Below, one piece after another: positions 1,806 through 48,318 of a stretch of DNA of 48,988 nucleotides (the stretch's first letter is position 1; every line of letters starts with the position of its first letter). Position numbers and translations under genes: made by a program. The stretch is from sequence record OK272487.1; one strand, 5' to 3'. Source of the stretch: Escherichia phage JLBYU09. The notes beneath the pieces are model-generated. The model ran no database searches, had not been told where the DNA came from, and saw only the letters and a program-made list of their open reading frames with translations.

Positions 1806-1850
1806 AATATATCGGATTGCGAGGATTGAGTTTTAACAAAAAGTGCTATT
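1806..1850 (-). promoter_or_regulatory. conserved-box promoter-like element (box, 19-nt spacer, TATATT)
   Basis: Minus-strand AATAGCACTTTTTGTTAAAA at 1850-1831, -10-like TATATT at 1811-1806; stop TAA of gene 1850..2116 abuts the box. Confidence 0.5.
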
Positions 1851-2682: not shown

Positions 2683-2727
2683 ATTATGCCGAATCCAGTC
2701 AGGCACGTTTTAACAAAAAGTGCTATT
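2683..2727 (-). promoter_or_regulatory. conserved-box promoter-like element (box, 19-nt spacer, CATAAT)
   Basis: Minus-strand AATAGCACTTTTTGTTAAAA at 2727-2708; CATAAT at 2688-2683. Confidence 0.5.
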
Positions 2728-3316
2728 TGCTTACTGGTCATTATTCCATCTATTCCATTAATCAGGAATAACAGGAATAACTCATTCGCGATCACCTGGA
2801 TTGGGAGACTTTGAGTTTGGTCAATTTTAATCAAGTGATTAACTTTTTGTGTGGAGGGGATAGAGAAACGCTGCCCTCTTGCATCCTTTCCGACAATCCT
2901 GGCGCGCGCATCTGTTATTTCTGTTCCCCATGTTATCTCAAATAAGCCTCCGCACTTTTAGATAACAGAATCGGCGTTCATCAACAAAAAGAACAAAATA
3001 AAANTNANATATNNACNNANNANATCAATAAGTTAGTTATATATGTATTTATATTTGTTATTTACTGTTGAGCTTGTTCTATGGGTATATGGTGGAGTGG
3101 TATTGTTTGTGGTGATATGTATGTGTGATTGTATATTTTTTAATCAATGGTGATATGTGGTGATTTTTGTATGTATATATATAGGTATGGAGCAATCCTC
3201 CGTCAACCAAGTCAACAAGGTCATTTTTAAAAGAAAAACCAATGACTTAACTGAAGCATTTTGTTATCTTTAAACGCGCCACATGCCAAAAATTGTTATT
3301 AAAACACAAAAATACA

Positions 3317-3381: not shown

Positions 3382-3903
3382 ATGAGCGAAGAAAATATTA
3401 GCACCATGTCGCGTAGTGAGTTCTGCGATATGCTTCGCAGCCTGGGCGCGGCAATTGGTAGCGGTGAGCGTAATGATGTATTCATGCCAGCACTTTTTTT
3501 GTGCGCTAACGTGGAGAACGGCGAAGCAATTACGGCATCGTACATGCGCCAAGTGGTCAACCGTGTGCCAGAAGTAAAGCAAAAAGGCGTGATCAGCATT
3601 AAGCGAAAGGTGACTGATGAGGGTGATGGCTTTGTGTTTACGCTCACTGAAGCCAAAAGCAAGCCTCGCGTTCTGACTGGTGAAGAAATCGACGAGATCG
3701 CAGAAAAGCGCGCAGAGAAGGCGGTAAGCAAAATTCTTAATCACCTGGTAAACGTAATGCCAAATATCACAGACCTGGAAGGCGACAAACTTGCTGGGGC
3801 GTGTGAGGCTATCGGGCGCTACCAGGATATGATTCGTAAACTCGCTGGAGGAAAAGAGGATGAATANNNNATNNNNNNNNNTNTTNAAACTCGAAAACGA
3901 TAA
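3382..3903 (+). CDS. hypothetical protein (C-terminus crosses N-run)
   Basis: Track ORF 3283..3903; start moved to ATG 3382 after AAAGGAG RBS; N-run 3867-3893. Confidence 0.5.
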   Translation: MSEENISTMSRSEFCDMLRSLGAAIGSGERNDVFMPALFLCANVENGEAITASYMRQVVNRVPEVKQKGVISIKRKVTDEGDGFVFTLTEAKSKPRVLTGEEIDEIAEKRAEKAVSKILNHLVNVMPNITDLEGDKLAGACEAIGRYQDMIRKLAGGKEDEXXXXXXXXTRKR

Positions 3904-5925: not shown

Positions 5926-6135
5926 TCTGGTTACTTTTAATCTTTGTCACAAGTTACAATTCCGCCGCTATTGAATCGCAAGAGTTCCACGGCGAATCAA
6001 GATGCCAGGAAGCACGANNACNNGNNNNNCNNNANNTCNACGGNCGAATCAAGATGCCAGGAAGCACGAAAACAAGTTGTTCTCCACATGTCAGATAGTG
6101 GGAAAGATGTAACAGCGCTATGCGTTCGTAAATAG
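5922..6135 (+). CDS. small membrane protein (MIWLL family), interrupted by N-run and tandem duplicate
   Basis: ATG 5922 overlaps the upstream stop, GGAGGA RBS; N-terminus MIWLLLIFVTSYNS; frame ambiguous across Ns 6018-6043. Confidence 0.3.
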
Positions 6136-6175
6136 CACTTTTTGCAAAAACACATTATCGGGCTTGCGGTATAGT
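6131..6175 (+). promoter_or_regulatory. conserved-box promoter-like element (box variant TTTTTGCAAAAA, 19-nt spacer, TATAGT)
   Basis: AATAGCACTTTTTGCAAAAA at 6131-6150; TATAGT at 6170-6175 in the loop of GGGCTT...AAGCCC. Confidence 0.5.
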
Positions 6176-8491: not shown

Positions 8492-8749
8492 ATGGCTAAA
8501 AGCAATCGTAAAATGTTGATTAACGCATTCGAAAAGGCAGCGCTTGAGCGTGGCTGGAATGACTCATTTCACACAGCAAACTGTATCCGCCGTTACGGAT
8601 TCAAGAATTGCCGCTCCTGGGCGCGTCAAATGGCTTCATGGTATGATCTTGATGCGCATTACCTTGATATGGATTGCGCCCTTGTTGAAATGATTGAGCA
8701 GGCCGCATTAGAGGATNGANCANNNNCGCANTNNNNNNTNGACCATTAA
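8492..8749 (+). CDS. hypothetical protein (3-prime end crosses N-run)
   Basis: AAAGGAGGAAGC RBS; Ns 8717-8738; true stop may be 8800-8802. Confidence 0.5.
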   Translation: MAKSNRKMLINAFEKAALERGWNDSFHTANCIRRYGFKNCRSWARQMASWYDLDAHYLDMDCALVEMIEQAALEDXXXXXXXXDH

Positions 8750-8800: not shown

Positions 8801-8845
8801 AATAGCACTTTTTGTTAAAACTTCCGCGAGGGCATTTGTTAAAGT
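8801..8845 (+). promoter_or_regulatory. conserved-box promoter-like element (box, 19-nt spacer, TAAAGT)
   Basis: AATAGCACTTTTTGTTAAAA at 8801-8820; TAAAGT at 8840-8845; stops TAA/TAG abut the box. Confidence 0.45.
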
Positions 8846-9096: not shown

Positions 9097-9328
9097 TCAC
9101 GATTAACCTGTCAGAGCAGCANGCGNGNATNATGNNNGNNNNCAGGCAACGGTTAAAATCCCTGATACGGTAGCGCGTGAAGTTTTTAACCAGCTTGAAC
9201 ACGCATTTGTTCCTGTTGGCACTGATCAGGCAGAAACAGCGGCTTGGTTCGGAGAGAACGGATACAGAGATCAGCAAGTCGAAAACTGGAAGCGCAAAAA
9301 CGAGACTGCGGAGGAGGCCGGATTATGA
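9093..9328 (+). CDS. hypothetical protein (interrupted by N-run)
   Basis: ATG 9093 overlaps the upstream stop; Ns 9121-9143 shift the apparent frame; ends TGA 9326-9328, overlapping the next ATG. Confidence 0.3.
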
Positions 9329-17248: not shown

Positions 17249-17331
17249 CACAAAATTATGTTGCACGTTTAACAAAAAATGCTATCATTGTGGCGTTACA
17301 TACTAACAGCCTTTATATATGGAGGAAGAAA

Positions 17332-20988: not shown

Positions 20989-21058
20989 TTACTGTACAAT
21001 CATGCTACACGATTCATAATCAATTCTTTTAACAAAAAGTGCTATCAAGGAGAAAGAA

Positions 21059-25575: not shown

Positions 25576-26306
25576 TGATTAGTGCAAAAATAAAACTTGA
25601 AATAATGCAGCACGTAAAAGATGAATACCCGCGCGAGGCGTGCGGGGTTATCACTCAAAAATCACGCGTGCAAAAATACCACCGCATAACCAACGTGCAT
25701 GATGATCCTGAAAATCATTTTGAGATGAACGCAATTGAATACGTTGAGGCGTGTGAAAGTGGCGAGCTTATTGCTGTTGTGCATAGCCACACTGGAGACG
25801 GTGCAAGTACAATTCCAAGCGCCCATGATACATGCATGTGTGATGAGATGGGTGTTTCATGGGTTATTGTGTCATGGCCAGAAGGTGATATGAGAATAAT
25901 TGAGCCTGAATCTCGTCCTCTGATTGGTCGCCCGTGGTCGCTTGGGGCGTATGATTGCTGGGGGCTTATTATGGCATGGCACAAGCAACATGGCGTTATC
26001 CTGAATGATTTCAGGAAACCATATGAATGGTGGAAGCCTGAGCACGGCGAAAATCTTTACCAGGAAAATTATCTGAAAGAGGGTTTTGTTGAAACAGGAG
26101 AGACGCCAAAACCTGGTGATATGGTTATCTTTCAGCTTTCCGCGCCAGTGTGGAATCATGCAGGCATTTATCTTGGCAACAATCAATTGCTTCATCATGC
26201 CTTTGGCAAGTTGTCAAGGGTTGATTTGTATTCTGGATGGTATCAGGAACATGCAAAAATGGTTTGTAGACACAAGGATCTGAAATATGACTTTGAAGGT
26301 AATTAA
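25572..26306 (+). CDS. tail tip assembly protein (lambda K-like; JAB/MPN plus NlpC/P60)
   Basis: JAMM motif VVHSHTGDGASTIPSAHD; NlpC/P60-type Cys and His (DCWGL, NHAGIY). Confidence 0.7.
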   Translation: MMISAKIKLEIMQHVKDEYPREACGVITQKSRVQKYHRITNVHDDPENHFEMNAIEYVEACESGELIAVVHSHTGDGASTIPSAHDTCMCDEMGVSWVIVSWPEGDMRIIEPESRPLIGRPWSLGAYDCWGLIMAWHKQHGVILNDFRKPYEWWKPEHGENLYQENYLKEGFVETGETPKPGDMVIFQLSAPVWNHAGIYLGNNQLLHHAFGKLSRVDLYSGWYQEHAKMVCRHKDLKYDFEGN

Positions 26307-26883
26307 ATTATCTGGATCTTTAGGCCGAAGATTTGGAGTATTTCATAAGCTGGCTGTTGATTCATACCCCGAAGCAATACGCGCACTATCTTCGCAGGTG
26401 GAAGGATTCAAGGACTACATGCAAAGCGAAGTAGGATCGCGAATGCGTTACGCTGTATTTGTTGACGGTAAGAATGTAGGACAGCACGATGAAAAAGCGT
26501 GGCAATGTGCAAAGGAAGTGAGGATTATTCCAATTCCAACAGGTTCAAAGTCTGGCGGGTTGTTTCAGGTTGTTCTTGGCGCGGTTATTATGGCGACTGC
26601 ATTTTTCACTGGCGGCTCTTCACTTGCTTTGATGGGCGCTTTTGCATCTTCTGCTTTCATGATGGGTGGTGCTATGGTGCTTGGCGGAGTAATGCAAATG
26701 ATTTCACCGCAGCAAGGCGGATCAAGATTGTCATCGCAGTCAGCAGAAAACAAACCGTCTTATGCTTTCGGTGGCGCTGTTAACACAACGGCAGCAGGAT
26801 ACCCAATACCATTGCCATACGGTCAAAGGACAGTCGGCGGAGCTATCTGGTCGGCTGGCAGCTATGCAGAGGACAAGGCTTAA
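26287..26883 (+). CDS. tail tip assembly protein (lambda I-like)
   Basis: 198 aa; hydrophobic Gly/Ala-rich C-terminal half; position between K-like and J-like genes. Confidence 0.55.
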   Translation: MTLKVIKLSGSLGRRFGVFHKLAVDSYPEAIRALSSQVEGFKDYMQSEVGSRMRYAVFVDGKNVGQHDEKAWQCAKEVRIIPIPTGSKSGGLFQVVLGAVIMATAFFTGGSSLALMGAFASSAFMMGGAMVLGGVMQMISPQQGGSRLSSQSAENKPSYAFGGAVNTTAAGYPIPLPYGQRTVGGAIWSAGSYAEDKA

Positions 26884-26890
26884 TATAAAA

Positions 26891-26920
26891 GAGTCGCGCG
26901 TTGCGCGGCTTTTTTTTTGC
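26891..26920 (+). terminator. rho-independent terminator
   Basis: GC hairpin (CGCG-ttg-CGCG) followed by nine T; TATAAT at 26924-26929 and a partial box AATAGCAC at 26941-26948 follow. Confidence 0.6.
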
Positions 26921-26963
26921 CCGTATAATTCAACAAATCAAATAGCACAAAAGGTGAAAAAGC

Positions 26964-29900
26964 ATGGCTGAAAATATGATAACGGGAAGTAAGGGCGGAT
27001 CATCAAAACCTTATGTTCCGAAAGAGATGGAAGATAACCTGATCTCAATCAACAAAATCAAAATTCTTCTTGCCGTTTCCGATGGCGAGTGCGATCCAGA
27101 TTTTACACTTCGCGATCTGTATCTTGATGATGTTCCGGTAATTGCAGGCGACGGAACTGTTAACTACCAGGGTGTGAAAGCTGAATTTCGACCTGGAACG
27201 CAGACGCAAGATTACATCCAGGGGTTTACTGACACATCAAGCGAAGTGACGCTGGCGCGTGACATTACGACAACAAATCCTTATGTAATTTCCGTAACCA
27301 ACAAAACATTATCGGCTATCAGAATCAAAATGCTAATGCCAACAGGCATTAAGCAAGAGGATAACGGCGATCTTGTTGGCGTTAAGGTTACTTATGCTGT
27401 TGATATGGCTGTTGACGGAGACTCTTACAAAGAAGTATTGCGAGACACTATCGAAGGTAAAACGCGATCAGGTTACGACAGAAGCAGAAGGATTGACCTT
27501 CCGGCATTTAATGATCGCGTATTACTTAGGGTTAGAAGGGTTACGGCAGACAGCACATCTTCTCGTGTTACTGATCTGATTAAACTACAAAGTTACGCTG
27601 AGGTTATTGATGCAAAATTCCGTTACCCTCTGACTGGTCTTGTATACGTTGAATTTGACAGTGAGTTGTTCCCTAACCAGATCCCTAACATTTCAATCAA
27701 GAAGAAATGGAAGTTGATTAATGTTCCGAGCAATTACGATCCGGTAATGCGAGAGTATCACGGTTCATGGGATGGTACGTTCAAAAAAGCGTGGTCGAAC
27801 AATCCGGCGTGGGTACTTTATGACATTATCACAAACCAGCGATACGGATTAGATCAGAGAGAGCTTGGTGTGCAGGTTGACAAATGGAGTCTTTACGAAG
27901 CGGCGCAATACTGCGATCAGAAAGTGCCGGACGGAAAAGGCGGTACAGAGCCGCGTTATCTATGCGACGTTGTGATTCAAAGCCAGATTGAGGCTTATCA
28001 GCTTATTCGTGATATTTGCTCAATCTTCCGAGGAATGAGCTTTTGGAATGGAGAGAGCTTGTCAATCGTCATTGATAAGCCGCGCGATCCGTCGTACATC
28101 TTCACCAATGACAACGTTGTTGATGGTGATTTTCAGTACACAACAGCAAGCGAAAAGAGCATGTACACGCAGTGCAACGTGACGTTCGACGACGAACAAA
28201 ACATGTATCAACAGGACGTAGAGGGCGTATTCGACACCGAGGCTGCATTGCGCTTTGGATACAATCCGACAAGCATAACAGCGATCGGATGTACACGCAG
28301 GAGTGAGGCTAATCGGCGCGGTCGATGGATACTAAAAACCAACTTGCGCAGCACTACGGTAAACTTTGCTACTGGACTGGAAGGAATGATCCCATCAATA
28401 GGTGATGTGATTGCTATTGCTGACAACTTTCACAGCAGCAACCTTAAATTAAACCTATCAGGGCGCGTGATGGAAGTTTCCGGCTTGCAGGTGTTCGTTC
28501 CGTTTAAGATTGACGCGCGACCAGGTGATTTCATTATCATCAACAAACCGGACGGAAAGCCAGTTAAGCGCACAATCTCAAAAGTAAGCGGCGACGGAAA
28601 AACCATTGAACTAAACATTGGGTTTGGGTTTGAAGTTAAACCGGATACAGTTTTTGCAATCGACCGCACTGATATTGCATTGCAGCAATACGTTGTAACG
28701 AGTATCGGCAAAGGTGATGATGATGATGAATTTACATACTCCATCACGGCTGTTGAATATGACCCGAACAAATACGACGAGATTGATTACGGAGTAAACA
28801 TTGACGACAGGCCAACTTCAATTGTCCAGCCTGACACAATGGCAGCACCGGAAAACGTGCAAATATCCTCATACTCGCGAATTGTCCAGGGTGCAAGCGT
28901 TGAAACAATGGTTGTGTCGTGGGATAAAGTACCTTACGCATCGCTGTATGAAATGCAATGGCGAAAAGGTGATGGAAACTGGCTGAATACACCACAGACC
29001 GCAAACAAAGAAATTGAGGTTGAAGGTATTTATTCAGGAAACTACCAGGTAAGGGTTAGATCTGTTTCCGCTTCAGGTTCTACTTCTCCGTGGTCCAGAA
29101 TTGTGACAGCATCACTGACTGGTAAGGTAGGAGAGCCAGGCGCGCCAGTTAACTTAACAGCATCCGACAATGAAGTGTTTGGCATTCGTGTTAAGTGGGG
29201 GATGCCAGAAGGGAGCGGGGACACGGCATACATTGAGCTTCATCAGTCGCCGGATGGAACGGCTGAAAACTCAAGCCTGCTAACGCTGATCCCGTATCCA
29301 CAATATGAATACTGGCACGGTACGCTTCCGGCTGGTCATGTTGTATGGTATCGGATCAGGAGCGTGGACAGGATCGGCAACGTTTCCGGTTGGACTGATT
29401 TTGTTAGAGGTATGGCTTCAGATGATGTGGAGGCTGTTTTAGGAGATATTCTTGATAAGATTTTTGATACTGAAGCAGGTCAGGATCTTAAAGAGAACGC
29501 CATTGACAGTGCAAACAAGATAAAGGACCAGGCGCAAGCAATCATCCAGAATGCTCTTGCTAATGATGCTGATATTAAGTGGACGCGAGTACAAAACGGA
29601 AAGAGAAAGGCTGAATATGGTCACGCTCTTGAGCTTATCGCCACAGAGACTGAGGCGCGAGTTACGCAGATTGAAGAATTGAGGGCGTCAATCGACGAGG
29701 ATATTGTTTCAAGCATAAAGACAGTGCAGGAGGCTATCGCCACAGAATCTGAAACGCGAGCAACTCAAATAAACGCTTTGGATTCAAAATTCACAACTGA
29801 AATTGACGGCGTAAAACGCAATACAGCAGCAAGCATTAATCAGGTGAATCAAACAATTGCCAATGAATCAGAGGCGCGAGCGCAGGCCGTTAACGCGCTT

Positions 29901-30542
29901 GATGCGAAGTTCACAAAGGAGATCGAAGATTTAAACGGAGTCATTAAGACTGAGGTTGAGGCTAACATCTCTGAAGTGAAACAGGCTATCGCTAATGAGA
30001 CAGAAGCAAGGGTGCAGGCTGACCAGGCTTTAACAGCTAAATTCGGAGACGTTGAATCTGCATTAGCTCAAAAACTTGATTCGTGGGCTGGCGTGTCATC
30101 TGTTGGTGCTAAATACTCAATGAAATTGGGGTTAACATACAATGGGCAGAAGTACAGCGCAGGAATGGTAATGCAGCTTTCGCAGAGTTCATCCGGCCTT
30201 GTCTCGCAAATCTTGTTTGACGCGAACAGGTTCGCGATCATGACAAGTTCGACTGGCGGGGTGTATACATTGCCTTTCGTGGTGGAAAATAACCAGGTAT
30301 TCATTAACAGCCTGTTAGTTAAAAACGGTTCAATTACAAATGCCATGATCGGTAATTATATTCAGTCGAATAACTTTGTTGCCAATCAGCAGGGTTGGAG
30401 GCTGGATAAAAACGGCAGATTTGAGAACTACGGTTCTACGTCTGGAGAGGGGGCCATGAAGTTGACCAATGAAACGATAAGTGTACGAGATGCAAACGGG
30501 CGCTTGCGTGTTCAGATTGGTAGGCTTACTGGTACGTGGTAA
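26964..30542 (+). CDS. central tail fibre / host specificity protein (lambda J-like)
   Basis: 1192 aa; AAGGTGAAAAAG RBS; follows K/I-like genes; C-terminal repeats (ANESEARAQAVNALDAKFT). Confidence 0.8.
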   Translation: MAENMITGSKGGSSKPYVPKEMEDNLISINKIKILLAVSDGECDPDFTLRDLYLDDVPVIAGDGTVNYQGVKAEFRPGTQTQDYIQGFTDTSSEVTLARDITTTNPYVISVTNKTLSAIRIKMLMPTGIKQEDNGDLVGVKVTYAVDMAVDGDSYKEVLRDTIEGKTRSGYDRSRRIDLPAFNDRVLLRVRRVTADSTSSRVTDLIKLQSYAEVIDAKFRYPLTGLVYVEFDSELFPNQIPNISIKKKWKLINVPSNYDPVMREYHGSWDGTFKKAWSNNPAWVLYDIITNQRYGLDQRELGVQVDKWSLYEAAQYCDQKVPDGKGGTEPRYLCDVVIQSQIEAYQLIRDICSIFRGMSFWNGESLSIVIDKPRDPSYIFTNDNVVDGDFQYTTASEKSMYTQCNVTFDDEQNMYQQDVEGVFDTEAALRFGYNPTSITAIGCTRRSEANRRGRWILKTNLRSTTVNFATGLEGMIPSIGDVIAIADNFHSSNLKLNLSGRVMEVSGLQVFVPFKIDARPGDFIIINKPDGKPVKRTISKVSGDGKTIELNIGFGFEVKPDTVFAIDRTDIALQQYVVTSIGKGDDDDEFTYSITAVEYDPNKYDEIDYGVNIDDRPTSIVQPDTMAAPENVQISSYSRIVQGASVETMVVSWDKVPYASLYEMQWRKGDGNWLNTPQTANKEIEVEGIYSGNYQVRVRSVSASGSTSPWSRIVTASLTGKVGEPGAPVNLTASDNEVFGIRVKWGMPEGSGDTAYIELHQSPDGTAENSSLLTLIPYPQYEYWHGTLPAGHVVWYRIRSVDRIGNVSGWTDFVRGMASDDVEAVLGDILDKIFDTEAGQDLKENAIDSANKIKDQAQAIIQNALANDADIKWTRVQNGKRKAEYGHALELIATETEARVTQIEELRASIDEDIVSSIKTVQEAIATESETRATQINALDSKFTTEIDGVKRNTAASINQVNQTIANESEARAQAVNALDAKFTKEIEDLNGVIKTEVEANISEVKQAIANETEARVQADQALTAKFGDVESALAQKLDSWAGVSSVGAKYSMKLGLTYNGQKYSAGMVMQLSQSSSGLVSQILFDANRFAIMTSSTGGVYTLPFVVENNQVFINSLLVKNGSITNAMIGNYIQSNNFVANQQGWRLDKNGRFENYGSTSGEGAMKLTNETISVRDANGRLRVQIGRLTGTW

Positions 30543-30549
30543 AATCAAA

Positions 30550-30573
30550 GCGGGGCGTTTGCCCCGCATTTAT
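30550..30573 (+). terminator. terminator / attenuator hairpin
   Basis: GCGGGGC-gttt-GCCCCGC followed by ATTTAT, then the RBS of the next gene; weak U-run. Confidence 0.4.
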
Positions 30574-30585
30574 GGAGGTTTAATA

Positions 30586-30891
30586 ATGGCTGAATATGGG
30601 ATCTCAACTTGGGATGCAAACGGGAAGTATAACAACTACGGAATCAAGCCAGTTTCCGTTGTTGGTGTCATTAGCCTTGCCGCTGGTCAGACAAGCGGAT
30701 CGTGGAGCTTTAGCATTCCAAGTGGTTTTAAGGTTGGGTATGTTGTTTCACTTGATGAAGGTGCCAGGGGAGTTGGAAGGGAAATAGTAGCATCTGGAAA
30801 CACAATAAGAATTAGTCCTACATCGTCGGTTGGTGCAAATAGATATTCTTCTTCAAAGTGCGAGTTAGTTGTTTTTCTTGAGAGGGTTTAA
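30586..30891 (+). CDS. putative tail fibre accessory / receptor-binding protein (MAEYG family, short)
   Basis: Start moved to ATG 30586 (MAEYGISTWDANGK) after GGAGG RBS; paralogous to the next gene. Confidence 0.45.
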   Translation: MAEYGISTWDANGKYNNYGIKPVSVVGVISLAAGQTSGSWSFSIPSGFKVGYVVSLDEGARGVGREIVASGNTIRISPTSSVGANRYSSSKCELVVFLERV

Positions 30892-30892
30892 A

Positions 30893-31531
30893 ATGGCTGA
30901 GTATGGAGCAATGTTATCTTTATCAAATGGGAATCCATTTGTCACACCAAAATCAACGCCATTTTGCTTATATGGCAAGTACACTTATTCATCTTCAGGT
31001 ACTTCTGCCTATCATAGTGCAAGCGCAAATATACCAGTAAACCAATCTTATCCATGCATGGCATTTATAAAAACAACAAACACACAGCAGCCAACTGCAT
31101 TAATAGCTTACAGGAATGGTGGCAACATTTATGTAAACGGAGGAAATCCATATGGTCAATCATTTACAATGACTGTTTATATATTTGCCATATTCCCTCA
31201 AACTCTACCCAAATATGGTATGGCTATATGGGATGCAAGCGGCAAGTTGGTTTTAACTAATGAAAGCAGGGTGCTAACAGATCTTGTTACAATTGGTACT
31301 CCTGGTTCTTCAGGTGGAACGAATATAGATCAAACGTTATCTGGTTCTTATGCCGTTTGCCCTTCAAGGCTTGGTGCGGTTATAGGTATGGGCGCTTCTG
31401 ATATATATACATCATGCAGGTATAATGGTTCAAGCACAAGGATAGGTGCAGCAAGGACAACGCCAGGAACAGGTTCTATAACAAATAACGGAAATTCAAT
31501 AATTGCAATAAAGACTGATATTTACGACTAA
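30893..31531 (+). CDS. putative receptor-binding protein (MAEYG family, long)
   Basis: Start moved to ATG 30893 (MAEYGAMLSLSNG); internal repeat KYGMAIWDASGK; last rightward structural gene, convergent with the Cor-like gene. Confidence 0.45.
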   Translation: MAEYGAMLSLSNGNPFVTPKSTPFCLYGKYTYSSSGTSAYHSASANIPVNQSYPCMAFIKTTNTQQPTALIAYRNGGNIYVNGGNPYGQSFTMTVYIFAIFPQTLPKYGMAIWDASGKLVLTNESRVLTDLVTIGTPGSSGGTNIDQTLSGSYAVCPSRLGAVIGMGASDIYTSCRYNGSSTRIGAARTTPGTGSITNNGNSIIAIKTDIYD

Positions 31532-31534
31532 TGA

Positions 31535-31560
31535 AAAGGGGCTTTCGCCCCTTTATTTTT
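31535..31560. terminator. bidirectional rho-independent terminator
   Basis: AAAGGGGC-tttc-GCCCCTTT flanked by A-run and T-run, between convergent genes. Confidence 0.6.
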
Positions 31561-31562
31561 AT

Positions 31563-31790
31563 TCACAGACTGCAATCAGCGTTTTTAAAGTTATCAATAC
31601 TTACCCACTGAAAATTAAACGGATAGCCAGCCTTAACAAGAGTGCGGTCGCCAACTCGTTTCACTCCGAAAATAGCAACTGAATACTGCATTCCGCTATT
31701 TTCATAAATAGCCGTGCATTCACGTTTAGGCATATTTGCACATCCAGTCAGTGCAACGGCTGCAATCAAAACGGCGATTAACTTTTTCAT
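31563..31790 (-). CDS. cor: Cor-like superinfection-exclusion lipoprotein
   Basis: 75 aa; signal peptide plus lipobox LTGC; convergent with the receptor-binding gene, as recalled for T1 and phi80 cor; AAGGAGA RBS. Confidence 0.55.
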   Translation of the reverse strand: MKKLIAVLIAAVALTGCANMPKRECTAIYENSGMQYSVAIFGVKRVGDRTLVKAGYPFNFQWVSIDNFKNADCSL

Positions 31791-31820
31791 TTTGTGTCTC
31801 CTTAGTTGTTATTGGTTGCA

Positions 31821-31864
31821 ACTATACACGATCTTGCGGTGGGCGTTTAGCAAAAAGTGCTATT
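31821..31864 (-). promoter_or_regulatory. conserved-box promoter-like element (box variant, 19-nt spacer, TATAGT)
   Basis: Minus-strand AATAGCACTTTTTGCTAAA at 31864-31846; TATAGT at 31826-31821; upstream of the Cor-like gene. Confidence 0.5.
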
Positions 31865-32231
31865 CTTGTTCTTTTTGTTATCCGGTGTTCTCAAATCTGC
31901 GGAGTCTTAAATTTAGCTCAAAAAGTGAACAACAATAGAGCGCAATACATACAGATAAATATATACATACATATAAATCAATAAGTTAGTAGTATATATA
32001 TTCATGTTTGTTCTTTATTGTTATCTATGTTTTGTGTGATTTTGTGCGTCTGGTGATTTTTCTGTGATTATGCATGTGTCAGTGGTTATGTGTGTCTATA
32101 TATCTATATCCGGCGCAAATGAGGGAACAAGAGAACAAAAAGACAACAAAGGTATTTATCAATCACTTACATGTGAATTTTGTTATCCAATTCTCCTAGA
32201 ACGTTGTTAGAACAGAAAAAACAAAATAACT

Positions 32232-32259
32232 GTTGACTAAACGCATTAAATAGCTAAAA
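32232..32259 (+). promoter_or_regulatory. sigma70-like promoter (TTGACT, 16 nt, TAAAAT)
   Basis: At the right end of AT-rich region B, upstream of the exonuclease/Erf/SSB operon. Confidence 0.5.
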
Positions 32260-32289
32260 TGCAGGCATACCAACCAACGAGGGCAAATC

Positions 32290-33351
32290 ATGAATAAGTT
32301 TATGGCGTACACCAGCGAAGAAATGAGTAACGAGCTTTATCACGATCCAGAAGCGTGGACGGCTGATTATGTTAGCGGTTCAAGCCTGGCAGAGATTTAC
32401 AGCACATGCCCGGCAGCGTGGAAGTTCAAGCCGCGTGATGACAAGAGCAAGGCGCTAGTTTTCGGTACGCAGTCGCATACCAACTTTGAAAGCAAGGAGC
32501 TTTTCGAAAAAACCTATCGCCGTGCGCCAGCACCAGAAGAATTTAAGGATCTGATAACCAGCCAAACGGCGCTTGCTGCAAAGCTGAAATCATTTGGACT
32601 GAAAGGTACAACCGGAAAGACTTATCCCGAACTTATAAAAATGATGGTTGACTGCGGAGAAGACCTTAACGTCATGTGGTTAATCGACATGATCGCAGAA
32701 AGTCAGGCCAGGGCCGATGGGGTTCAGTTAATCGAGGCTAAAGATTACGATTCTTGCGTGGCAATGCGCCAGGTTCTGGAATCAATACCGGAACATAACG
32801 CATGTATGAATAGCAAGACGGCACAACGTGAATTATCGTTGTTCGGTGAAATTAACGGCGTAAAAGTCAAAGTGCGATGCGATCACGTTGACGTAACAAA
32901 GAACGTCACCGCAACGCTTATTGATGGTTACGATGAAAAAGGTCAGCCAATTTGCCGCGATATTATTTATCCAGAGGCCATTGTGATCACAGACTACAAA
33001 ACCACAATGAGCGCGAATCCGGCTGAGTTTATGCGCCTGGCTTACAATCACGGCTATTATTTGAAAATGGCGTTGCAATGTGATTTATTCAGAAAAGCGT
33101 ATCCAGAAGAAAAGCGACCTATAGTTGTTCGACTGTTAGCGCAAGAGAAGAAAGAGCCTTATTTGCCGTTGGCTTTCCGCATGAACAGCGAGCAATTGAA
33201 GATCGGGCGCATTCAGTACATGAGCGTAATTAACCAGTTTGCCATGTGCCAGCAACATGACGTTTGGCCTTCGTATTCAAACGGCGAGCCGGAGGTTTGC
33301 CTTGATACTCCTGATTGGGTGCGACGCCAGTTTAAGCAATATCTTATTTAA
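32290..33351 (+). CDS. recombination exonuclease (PD-(D/E)xK family, putative)
   Basis: 353 aa; D...D-Y-K signature (CDHVD, ITDYKTT); first gene of an operon with Erf and SSB. Confidence 0.55.
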   Translation: MNKFMAYTSEEMSNELYHDPEAWTADYVSGSSLAEIYSTCPAAWKFKPRDDKSKALVFGTQSHTNFESKELFEKTYRRAPAPEEFKDLITSQTALAAKLKSFGLKGTTGKTYPELIKMMVDCGEDLNVMWLIDMIAESQARADGVQLIEAKDYDSCVAMRQVLESIPEHNACMNSKTAQRELSLFGEINGVKVKVRCDHVDVTKNVTATLIDGYDEKGQPICRDIIYPEAIVITDYKTTMSANPAEFMRLAYNHGYYLKMALQCDLFRKAYPEEKRPIVVRLLAQEKKEPYLPLAFRMNSEQLKIGRIQYMSVINQFAMCQQHDVWPSYSNGEPEVCLDTPDWVRRQFKQYLI

Positions 33352-33432
33352 ACAGCACAAATAGCTAAACAAATGAAAAATGCGGTGTTATAATTCACCG
33401 CATAAGTTAACAACAAGAGTAAGGAAATAAAC

Positions 33433-45866: not shown

Positions 45867-46073
45867 TCAAATCTTGAAAGCTGTTTCCGCTATAATCATT
45901 CTCGACAAGAATGTAAGNACNTNTCTTCNTNNNATCNNNNANNNNNNNNTNTNNTCNTAACGATTTATTTCAAACGTGCTACCATCTTCTCTTGTCGCAG
46001 TTCCTTTGTCGTTGAAAACATCAAAAGTTACATTGATGATTTTTGTTTCTTTCTTTGTTACTTTGATAGCCAT
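45867..46073 (-). CDS. hypothetical protein (interrupted by N-run)
   Basis: Track ORF 45867..46088; start moved to ATG 46073 after GAGGA RBS; Ns 45918-45958. Confidence 0.4.
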   Translation of the reverse strand: MAIKVTKKETKIINVTFDVFNDKGTATREDGSTFEINRXXXXXXXXXXXRXXLTFLSRMIIAETAFKI

Positions 46074-46106: not shown

Positions 46107-46151
46107 AATATACCCGATACGAGATCAGGTGTTTTAACAAAAAGTGCTATT
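46107..46151 (-). promoter_or_regulatory. conserved-box promoter-like element (box, 19-nt spacer, TATATT)
   Basis: Minus-strand AATAGCACTTTTTGTTAAAA at 46151-46132; TATATT at 46112-46107. Confidence 0.5.
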
Positions 46152-48273: not shown

Positions 48274-48318
48274 ATAATACCGCACCAATGCTACCCGCAT
48301 TTAACAAAAAATGCTATT
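48274..48318 (-). promoter_or_regulatory. conserved-box promoter-like element (box variant, 19-nt spacer, TATTAT)
   Basis: Minus-strand AATAGCATTTTTTGTTAAAT at 48318-48299; TATTAT at 48279-48274 in the loop of GCGG...CCGC. Confidence 0.5.

What the first reader, a model, noticed from the sequence alone, without database searches (positions are those of the whole stretch)
31563..31790. Cor-like lipoprotein gene convergent with the receptor-binding genes, suggesting FhuA-type receptor use
The 75-aa lipoprotein (lipobox LTGC) has its own box promoter and is placed tail-to-tail with the last structural gene. In T1, phi80 and N15 the similarly placed Cor lipoprotein blocks the FhuA receptor to exclude superinfection, so this gene points to the likely receptor and a lytic-conversion function.
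Basis: partly seen in the sequence, partly recalled or inferred. Interest (0 to 1): 0.5.

Follow-up and report, generated by a model that had tools for sequence, protein, structure and literature searches.

The report
Cor exclusion lipoprotein of a T1-like phage

Summary
Observation confirmed. Window 31563-31790 (-) is a 75-aa ORF with a Shine-Dalgarno site, a lipobox (LTG|C17) and its own "box" promoter-like element. It lies tail-to-tail with the last tail-tip gene, across a shared terminator.

It is a true Cor:
- NCBIfam NF047972 scores 70.3 bits against a cutoff of 31, and PHROG 1119 gives E 5e-29.
- It is 56% identical to T1 Cor and 33-37% to phi80 and N15 Cor.

Window 26001-33400 is base-for-base identical to Escherichia phage JLBYU41 (Hanrivervirus). 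That phage was shown by fhuA knockout and complementation to need FhuA, and its GenBank record already calls this gene a superinfection exclusion protein.

In 13 BASEL Drexlerviridae with measured receptors, a profile of the mature Cor domain hits 6 of 6 FhuA users and 0 of 7 others.

In BtuB-dependent Bas06 even the signal peptide is identical. Only the mature-domain sequence and the two upstream genes indicate FhuA.

No exclusion assay exists for this allele. Verdict: correct, already known, low interest.

The parts
26964..30542 (+). J-like central tail-tip protein (1192 aa). It is the scaffold on which the locus-encoded receptor-binding protein is thought to sit. The last ~70 residues (nt ~30336-30542) are of the FhuA-associated type.
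   Evidence: It is 100% identical to JLBYU41 J and 98.5% identical to the J of BtuB-dependent Bas06. Of the 18 differences from Bas06, 11 lie in residues 1125-1191. FhuA-dependent Bas05 J has only 3 differences in the last 80 residues, against 125 overall.
30586..30891 (+). gp22-like small protein (101 aa), first gene of the FhuA-type receptor cassette. It is annotated elsewhere as 'outer membrane protein'.
   Evidence: PHROG 557, E 7.6e-30. It is 72% identical to phi80 gp22, 67% to N15 gp22 and 61% to the T1 homologue.
30893..31531 (+). gp23-like protein (212 aa), the probable FhuA receptor-binding protein. It is annotated elsewhere as 'membrane associated protein'.
31535..31554 (.). GC-rich hairpin AAAGGGGC-TTTC-GCCCCTTT between the convergent genes; a shared, probably bidirectional, terminator.
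   Evidence: Detected as a terminator on the + strand. On the - strand the core stem GGGGC/GCCCC is followed by TTTTCATT (read).
31563..31790 (-). cor: a 75-aa prolipoprotein. The signal peptide with lipobox Cys17 is encoded by 31740-31790 and the mature 59-aa domain by 31566-31739.
30572..31739 (.). Exchangeable receptor cassette: gp22-like, gp23-like, the terminator and the mature part of cor. It is replaced as one block in the BtuB-dependent congener Bas06.
   Evidence: Window versus Bas06 is ~95% identical up to 30571 and again from 31740, with no similarity between. The right-hand junction falls right after the lipobox Cys codon, and both proteins begin MKKLIAVLIAAVALTGC.
31798..31803 (-). 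Shine-Dalgarno sequence AAGGAG, 7 nt upstream of the cor ATG.
   Evidence: Read directly from the sequence. Conserved in relatives.
31821..31863 (-). Box promoter-like element of cor: box ATAGCACTTTTTGCTAAA (31846-31863), a 19-nt spacer, then the -10-like TATAGT (31821-31826).
   Evidence: Conserved upstream of the lipoprotein gene in FhuA-, BtuB- and LptD-type relatives. It is the same repeat as the 21-nt element described in phage TLS (PMC11447400).

Best explanation
The gene encodes a Cor-family lipoprotein. It is transcribed on its own from a box-type promoter of the kind that precedes the phage's non-structural genes.

The likely pathway is as follows.
- The prolipoprotein is exported, lipidated and cleaved at LTG|C17. 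[quoted passage not shown]
- The 59-residue mature domain is a small beta-barrel, probably clamped by a C25-C73 disulphide.
- Like T5 Llp, it binds the periplasmic face of the TonB-dependent transporter FhuA and makes its outer surface unusable for phage binding.

FhuA is the terminal receptor of this phage. It is recognised by the product(s) of the two genes just upstream, most probably the 212-aa gp23-like protein, mounted on the J tail tip.

The pay-off in a virulent phage is twofold. It excludes later-arriving FhuA-dependent phages, and it protects progeny from being wasted on FhuA in the debris of the lysed cell (lytic conversion).

What is shown and what is inferred:
- Shown here: family membership, anatomy, Llp-like fold, identity of the locus to that of a phage with proven FhuA dependence, and co-variation of the mature domain with receptor type.
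- Inferred: expression timing, outer-membrane localisation, the disulphide, direct FhuA binding and the exclusion phenotype.
For: - Family: NF047972 70.3 bits versus cutoff 31; PHROG 1119 E 5.3e-29; 93% identical to Bas05 Cor, 56% to T1, 37% to phi80, 33% to N15.
- Conserved features: lipobox Cys, C25, C73 and the AGYPF motif in 94 homologues.
- Receptor: window 26001-33400 has 0 mismatches to JLBYU41, which is FhuA-dependent by knockout and complementation (PMC10373560).
- Association: the mature-Cor profile hits 6/6 FhuA-dependent and 0/7 LptD-, BtuB-, TolC- or YncD-dependent BASEL Drexlerviridae.
- Co-variation: the mature domain is swapped together with the RBP genes in BtuB-dependent Bas06, while promoter and signal peptide stay the same.
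- Literature: Cor proteins functionally inactivate FhuA and share the Llp fold (10.64898/2026.03.26.714494; PMC9586334). An AF3 model docks a T1-type Cor on the periplasmic side of FhuA with ipTM 0.84 (PMC13164509).
Against: - No exclusion, localisation or binding experiment exists for this allele or for any Tempevirinae Cor that I could find.
- The 2026 Llp preprint states that the molecular mechanism of Cor exclusion is still not elucidated.
- A 2018 paper (title cited) reports that Cor interacts with other outer membrane proteins, so direct and exclusive FhuA binding is not certain.
- Sequence similarity to Llp is marginal (E about 0.04).
- No canonical sigma-70 promoter is detected on the cor strand, and the function of the box is unproven.
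Confidence: 0.85

Rival explanations
1. Cor excludes FhuA-dependent phages indirectly. [quoted passage not shown]
For: [quoted passage not shown]
- The mechanism is described as not yet elucidated.
- Sequence similarity to Llp is only marginal.
Against: - The mature domain co-varies strictly with the receptor.
- A published AF3 model docks a T1-type Cor on periplasmic FhuA with ipTM 0.84.
Confidence: 0.1
2. The lipoprotein targets a receptor other than FhuA, for example BtuB or LptD. The equally placed lipoproteins of related phages do, so it would say nothing about FhuA.
For: - Bas06 and Bas04 (BtuB) and Bas01 and Bas02 (LptD) carry a small lipoprotein gene at the same position with the same box upstream. 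Bas06 has the identical 17-residue signal peptide.
- Rtp45 at this position is a proven LptD exclusion protein (PMC12685063).
Against: - The mature domain passes the Cor equivalog cutoff, whereas the Bas06 lipoprotein scores 19.5 against a cutoff of 31.
- A mature-only Cor profile hits none of the 7 non-FhuA phages even at E<=10.
- The identical locus sits in a phage that needs FhuA.
Confidence: 0.03
3. The ORF is a chance reading frame or a decayed remnant with no function.
For: The ORF is short (75 codons) and no Pfam family reaches its cutoff.
Against: - It has a strong SD, an intact lipobox and invariant Cys residues.
- Family E-values are 1e-19 to 5e-29.
- It is conserved at 93-100% protein identity in dozens of phages whose flanks have diverged.
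Confidence: 0.02

Closest known systems
Cor of coliphage T1 and other FhuA-dependent Drexlerviridae and Dhillonvirus (e.g. BASEL Bas05, Bas07, Bas09, Bas12, Bas13)
   Same: - Same family by HMM: 56% identity to T1 Cor and 93% to Bas05 Cor.
- Same length (75 aa), same lipobox and the same two Cys.
- Same arrangement: J, gp22-like, gp23-like, then cor convergent across a terminator.
- The host phages use FhuA.
   Different: - The two upstream genes of the window are closer to those of the temperate phages phi80 and HK022 (61-72%) than to T1 or Bas05 (51-61%), while cor is closer to the Drexlerviridae type. The cassette is therefore itself mosaic.
- T1 and Bas13 lack the box upstream of cor.
Cor of temperate phages phi80, N15, HK022 and mEp167 (the experimentally studied FhuA-inactivating lysogenic-conversion proteins)
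   Same: Homologous (33-37% identity) with the same conserved Cys and AGYPF motif. It follows the same gp22/gp23 gene pair downstream of J.
   Different: - In phi80 and N15, cor is co-directional with J and expressed from a prophage. Here it is convergent, has a box promoter and sits in a virulent-type phage, so it would act during lytic growth.
- These homologues carry a 2-3 residue insertion before the first mature Cys.
Llp, the lytic conversion lipoprotein of phage T5 (PDB 8A60, 7QJF)
   Same: - Small outer-membrane lipoprotein encoded next to the receptor-binding protein gene of an FhuA-dependent virulent siphophage.
- The disulphide Cys residues align.
   Different: About 18-20% identity, with sequence E-values only about 0.04. 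Llp belongs to a different curated family, and its partner RBP (pb5) is unrelated to gp23-like.
Receptor-locus lipoproteins of BtuB- and LptD-dependent small siphophages (Bas06/Bas04 89-aa lipoprotein; Rtp45 of phage Rtp)
   Same: Same genomic slot, the same box about 74-84 nt upstream, and the same role expected (receptor-matched exclusion). Bas06 shares the identical signal peptide.
   Different: The mature domains differ and fail the Cor cutoff. They are matched to other receptors.

Membership tests
Cor phage exclusion lipoprotein (NCBIfam NF047972 / PHROG 1119) | Scores above the curated family threshold | tested here: met
   NF047972 equivalog: 70.3 bits against a cutoff of 31, E 1e-19, covering residues 1-73. 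PHROG 1119: E 5.3e-29 over residues 1-74.
Cor phage exclusion lipoprotein (NCBIfam NF047972 / PHROG 1119) | Lipoprotein signal peptide with lipobox Cys; short mature domain with two conserved Cys and the AGYPF motif | tested here: met
   LTG|C17. C17, C25, C73, G55 and P57 are invariant, and A54, Y56 and F58 nearly invariant, in 94 homologues.
Cor phage exclusion lipoprotein (NCBIfam NF047972 / PHROG 1119) | Encoded immediately after the gp22-like/gp23-like pair downstream of the J tail-tip gene | tested here: met
   Order J 26964-30542, 30586-30891, 30893-31531, cor 31563-31790. The same order is found in T1, phi80, N15, Bas05 and others.
Cor phage exclusion lipoprotein (NCBIfam NF047972 / PHROG 1119) | Carried by phages whose terminal receptor is FhuA | tested here: met
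   The locus is identical to that of FhuA-dependent JLBYU41. The mature-Cor profile hits 6/6 FhuA users and 0/7 non-FhuA users among BASEL Drexlerviridae (with receptors).
Cor phage exclusion lipoprotein (NCBIfam NF047972 / PHROG 1119) | Expression blocks FhuA functions (FhuA-dependent phages, colicin M, ferrichrome uptake) | not testable with these tools
   This needs a wet-lab assay. It is reported for phi80- and mEp167-type Cor in the literature cited, not for this allele.
Cor phage exclusion lipoprotein (NCBIfam NF047972 / PHROG 1119) | Outer-membrane, periplasm-facing localisation | not testable with these tools
   Only the sorting rule can be read: residue +2 is Ala, not Asp. This is inference from the established Lol sorting rule.
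Llp-type lytic conversion lipoprotein (T5) | Significant sequence similarity to Llp | tested here: inconclusive
   Llp (8a60_B) is the best PDB sequence hit, but at E 0.044 for the single sequence and 0.04 for the profile.
Llp-type lytic conversion lipoprotein (T5) | Same three-dimensional fold as Llp | tested here: met
Receptor-specificity cassette of small siphoviruses (RBP locus downstream of gpJ, BASEL definition) | Lies directly downstream of gpJ and is replaced as a block between close relatives that use different receptors | tested here: met
   Window 30572-31739 has no counterpart in BtuB-dependent Bas06, while the flanks are ~95% identical.
Receptor-specificity cassette of small siphoviruses (RBP locus downstream of gpJ, BASEL definition) | Encodes a protein related to a proven locus-encoded RBP | tested here: met

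The most novel reading that the evidence does not exclude
The receptor cassette may be a plug-in unit with fixed adapters.
- On the left, the adapter would be the last ~70 codons of J.
- On the right, it would be the lipobox Cys codon of the lipoprotein gene.
- A constant box promoter, 5' leader and signal peptide would then drive whichever mature exclusion domain arrives together with its matching receptor-binding genes.

Probability: 0.5. Interest if true: 0.35.

Novelty: already known. Interest (0 to 1): 0.15.

Why it matters
For this genome it gives a sound annotation. It names the terminal receptor (FhuA) and identifies a receptor-masking gene that would affect phage cocktail design, because cells infected by this phage should become refractory to T1, T5, phi80 and other FhuA users. 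All of this is already in the literature and in the GenBank record of a phage with an identical locus. The practical lesson is methodological: a small lipoprotein gene in this slot marks a receptor-exclusion gene in general, and only its mature-domain family, together with the neighbouring gp22/gp23-like genes, tells which receptor is used.

Tried and rejected
- Pfam has no Cor model. Only LPAM_1 (19.6 bits against a cutoff of 20) and weak lipoprotein families appeared.
- The strict sigma-70 scan found nothing on the cor strand. The promoter claim therefore rests on the repeated box plus a -10-like hexamer.
- Rfam found nothing in the whole window.
- The first word-based homologue search returned only 6 close relatives. 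A second search with a five-sequence alignment was needed.
- Sequence comparison with Llp stayed marginal, so fold comparison was used instead.
- The Wietzorrek 2006 Rtp paper is not held.
- I considered that J itself determines FhuA use, as assumed in the JLBYU41 paper. This is unlikely for most of J, because the window's J is 98.5% identical to that of a BtuB-dependent phage. Only its last ~70 residues track the receptor.
- I considered that the window is JLBYU41 itself. It is a very close variant (99.0-99.97% in blocks, with indels and N-masked junctions), but the locus studied is identical.

Full report
**The object.** Window 31563-31790 on the minus strand is an ATG-initiated ORF of 75 codons. 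The product begins MKKLIAVLIAAVALTG|C, a textbook lipoprotein signal peptide: a basic n-region, a ten-residue hydrophobic core and a lipobox L-T-G-C. Residue +2 of the mature protein is Ala, which by the established Lol sorting rule sends the protein to the outer membrane. AAGGAG lies 7 nt before the ATG (31798-31803). The gene is convergent with the 212-codon gene ending at 31531. The 31-bp gap holds the hairpin AAAGGGGC-TTTC-GCCCCTTT, scored as a terminator on the plus strand. Its core stem is followed by TTTTCATT on the minus strand, so it probably serves both genes.

**The "box promoter".** Upstream of cor lies a 499-bp non-coding spacer reaching to the exonuclease VIII gene at 32290.
- A strict sigma-70 scan finds no promoter on the cor strand.
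- The 18-mer ATAGCACTTTTTGCTAAA sits at 31846-31863 (-), 73 nt before the ATG, with TATAGT 19 nt further on.
- The degenerate box ATAGCAYTTTTTGYTAAA occurs 12 times in the window against none in 100 shuffles.
- Every copy has a TATAAT-like hexamer 19-20 nt downstream, and 10 of the 12 copies lie 62-82 nt upstream of a same-strand start codon.
- This is the repeat aaATAGCACnnnTTGnTAAAA described in phage TLS. Its authors could not decide between a promoter, UP-like or operator role (PMC11447400).

Cor must be transcribed on its own, since it is the only minus-strand gene between two plus-strand blocks. That the box is the promoter remains an inference.

**What the protein is.**
- PHROG 1119 ("Cor superinfection exclusion protein") matches at E 5.3e-29.
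- The NCBIfam equivalog model NF047972 ("phage exclusion lipoprotein Cor") gives 70.3 bits against a curated cutoff of 31. Pfam has no model for the family.
- By tblastn the protein is 100% identical to the JLBYU41 product, 93% to BASEL phage PeterMerian (Bas05), 56% to T1, 37% to phi80 and 33-34% to N15 and HK022 Cor.
- In an alignment of 94 homologues the lipobox Cys, two further Cys (C25, C73), G55 and P57 are invariant, and the AGYPF motif is nearly so.
- An AlphaFold2 model built on that alignment is confident (pLDDT 87.6) and is a small beta-barrel.
- Foldseek also ranks 8a60_B first, as does phmmer at E 0.044 with both disulphide cysteines aligned.

This agrees with published statements that Cor and Llp share a fold and probably a mechanism (PMC9586334; 10.64898/2026.03.26.714494; PMC13164509).

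**Whose genome this is, and its receptor.**
- The window is a T1-like phage of the genus Hanrivervirus (Tempevirinae, Drexlerviridae).
- It aligns with Escherichia phage JLBYU41 (OK272479) in blocks of 99.0-99.97% identity, separated by indels.
- Window 26001-33400 covers J, the two downstream genes, cor, the spacer and the exonuclease gene. It has zero mismatches to JLBYU41.
- JLBYU41 was isolated as an FhuA-dependent phage. It does not infect MG1655 delta-fhuA::kan and infects again when fhuA is supplied on a plasmid (PMC10373560).
- Its GenBank record already annotates this ORF as "putative super-infection exclusion protein".

The receptor inference is therefore correct, and it is already published.

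**How good a predictor is Cor?** I fetched the J-to-exonuclease locus of all 13 BASEL Drexlerviridae. Their terminal receptors were determined experimentally (FhuA x6, BtuB x2, LptD x2, YncD x2, TolC x1). I searched their ORFs with a profile of the mature Cor domain only. All six FhuA users, plus T1 and the window, scored E<=1e-21. None of the seven others scored even at E<=10. A profile of the gp23-like protein gave the same partition, apart from a weak hit (E 2e-9) to the BtuB-type protein of Bas04. This reproduces the association reported for the BASEL collection (PMC8594841; PMC13164509; 10.64898/2026.04.02.716166).

Position, lipobox and box are not diagnostic of FhuA.
- BtuB-dependent Bas06 and Bas04 and LptD-dependent Bas01 and Bas02 also carry a small lipoprotein gene in this slot, with the box 74-84 nt upstream.
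- Bas06 belongs to the same genus, and its J protein is 98.5% identical to the window's.
- At the DNA level the two genomes are ~95% identical up to window 30571, 29 bp past the J stop, and again from 31740. They share nothing in between.
- The right-hand junction falls exactly after codon 17 of the lipoprotein. Both proteins therefore begin MKKLIAVLIAAVALTGC and then diverge completely.
- The Bas06 lipoprotein scores 19.5 bits on the Cor model, below the cutoff.

The unit that travels with receptor specificity is thus gp22-like, gp23-like, the terminator and the mature exclusion domain (30572-31739). The promoter, leader and signal peptide stay constant; they are conserved in 138 phage records. 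On the left, the last ~70 residues of J also track the receptor. Eleven of the 18 differences from Bas06 J lie there, whereas FhuA-dependent Bas05 J, with 125 differences overall, has three in its last 80 residues. That the mature domain is exchanged together with the receptor-binding genes is itself good evidence that it is receptor-specific.

**Mechanism, with shown and inferred steps.**
- Shown: the anatomy, family membership, the Llp-like fold, identity of the locus to that of a phage that needs FhuA, and co-variation of the mature domain with receptor type.
- The main uncertainty is mechanistic. The way Cor works is called unresolved in 2026, and one study implicates other outer membrane proteins.

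**Verdict.** The feature is a typical, already annotated member of a known family in a phage whose receptor is published. Interest is low. The modestly new points are the junction at the lipobox codon and the fold link between the FhuA-type and LptD-type receptor-binding proteins.

Noticed in passing
window 1832-1849(-), 2709-2726(-), 6132-6149(+), 8802-8819(+), 17268-17285(-), 21028-21045(-), 31846-31863(-), 39328-39345(+), 41846-41863(+), 42887-42904(+), 46133-46150(-), 48300-48317(-): There are twelve copies of the box ATAGCAYTTTTTGYTAAA (0 expected). Each has a TATAAT-like hexamer 19-20 nt downstream, and most lie 62-82 nt before a same-strand start codon. The TTGYTA-to-hexamer spacing is 21-22 nt, too long for a normal -35/-10 pair. 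Two copies (17268, 21028) point antisense inside the plus-strand structural module, one of them directly into a terminator hairpin. It is the same repeat as in phage TLS, and its function is unknown.
   Followed up: partly
window 37122-37199 (and N clusters at 1481-1569, 3004-3023, 3867-3886, 6018-6044, 8717-8740, 9122-9142, 45918-45957): The window contains 126 N in eight clusters, most of which coincide with indel junctions relative to JLBYU41. At 37158-37172 it lacks about 1.58 kb of the JLBYU41 lateral tail fibre gene (JLBYU41 37946-39529), out of frame and within an AKTSETN-repeat region. This is either a real lateral-fibre deletion or a collapsed or masked assembly.
   Followed up: partly
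window 30586-30630, 30893-30940, 31205-31246 and J C-terminus ~30480-30530: A short motif recurs at four places: the N-termini of both cassette proteins (MAEYGISTWDANGK and MAEYGAML..NGNPF), residues 105-118 of the 212-aa protein (LPKYGMAIWDASGK), and near the J C-terminus (ISVRDANGRLRVQIG). It also occurs in BtuB- and YncD-type cassette proteins, and may be a docking or strand-exchange motif.
   Followed up: no
window 30893-31531: The gp23-like family occurs in 351 phage records, including 111 Klebsiella phages at ~32% identity. Cor is found in only 242 records, of which 2 are Klebsiella. Many Klebsiella T1-like phages therefore carry the RBP-like gene without a detectable Cor.
   Followed up: no
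window 31791-32289: This is a 499-bp AT-rich non-coding spacer between cor and the exonuclease VIII gene, with many short direct and inverted repeats built on TGTTC/GAACA and ATACATA units. It is ~95% conserved in Bas06 and matches no Rfam family. It could hold divergent regulatory sites or an origin.
   Followed up: partly
window 30400-32400 versus GenBank MG0656xx records: Eighteen records named 'Campylobacter phage' (host C. jejuni) are 96-97% identical to this E. coli phage locus. They are most likely coliphage sequences mislabelled or carried along in those preparations.
   Followed up: no
L019 6168-6473(-) and L020 5860-6159(-) (YncD-type loci of Bas10 and Bas11): In YncD-type cassettes the gene next to the spacer is not a lipoprotein and has no box upstream. 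The candidate exclusion gene there, if any, must be another ORF of the locus.
   Followed up: no
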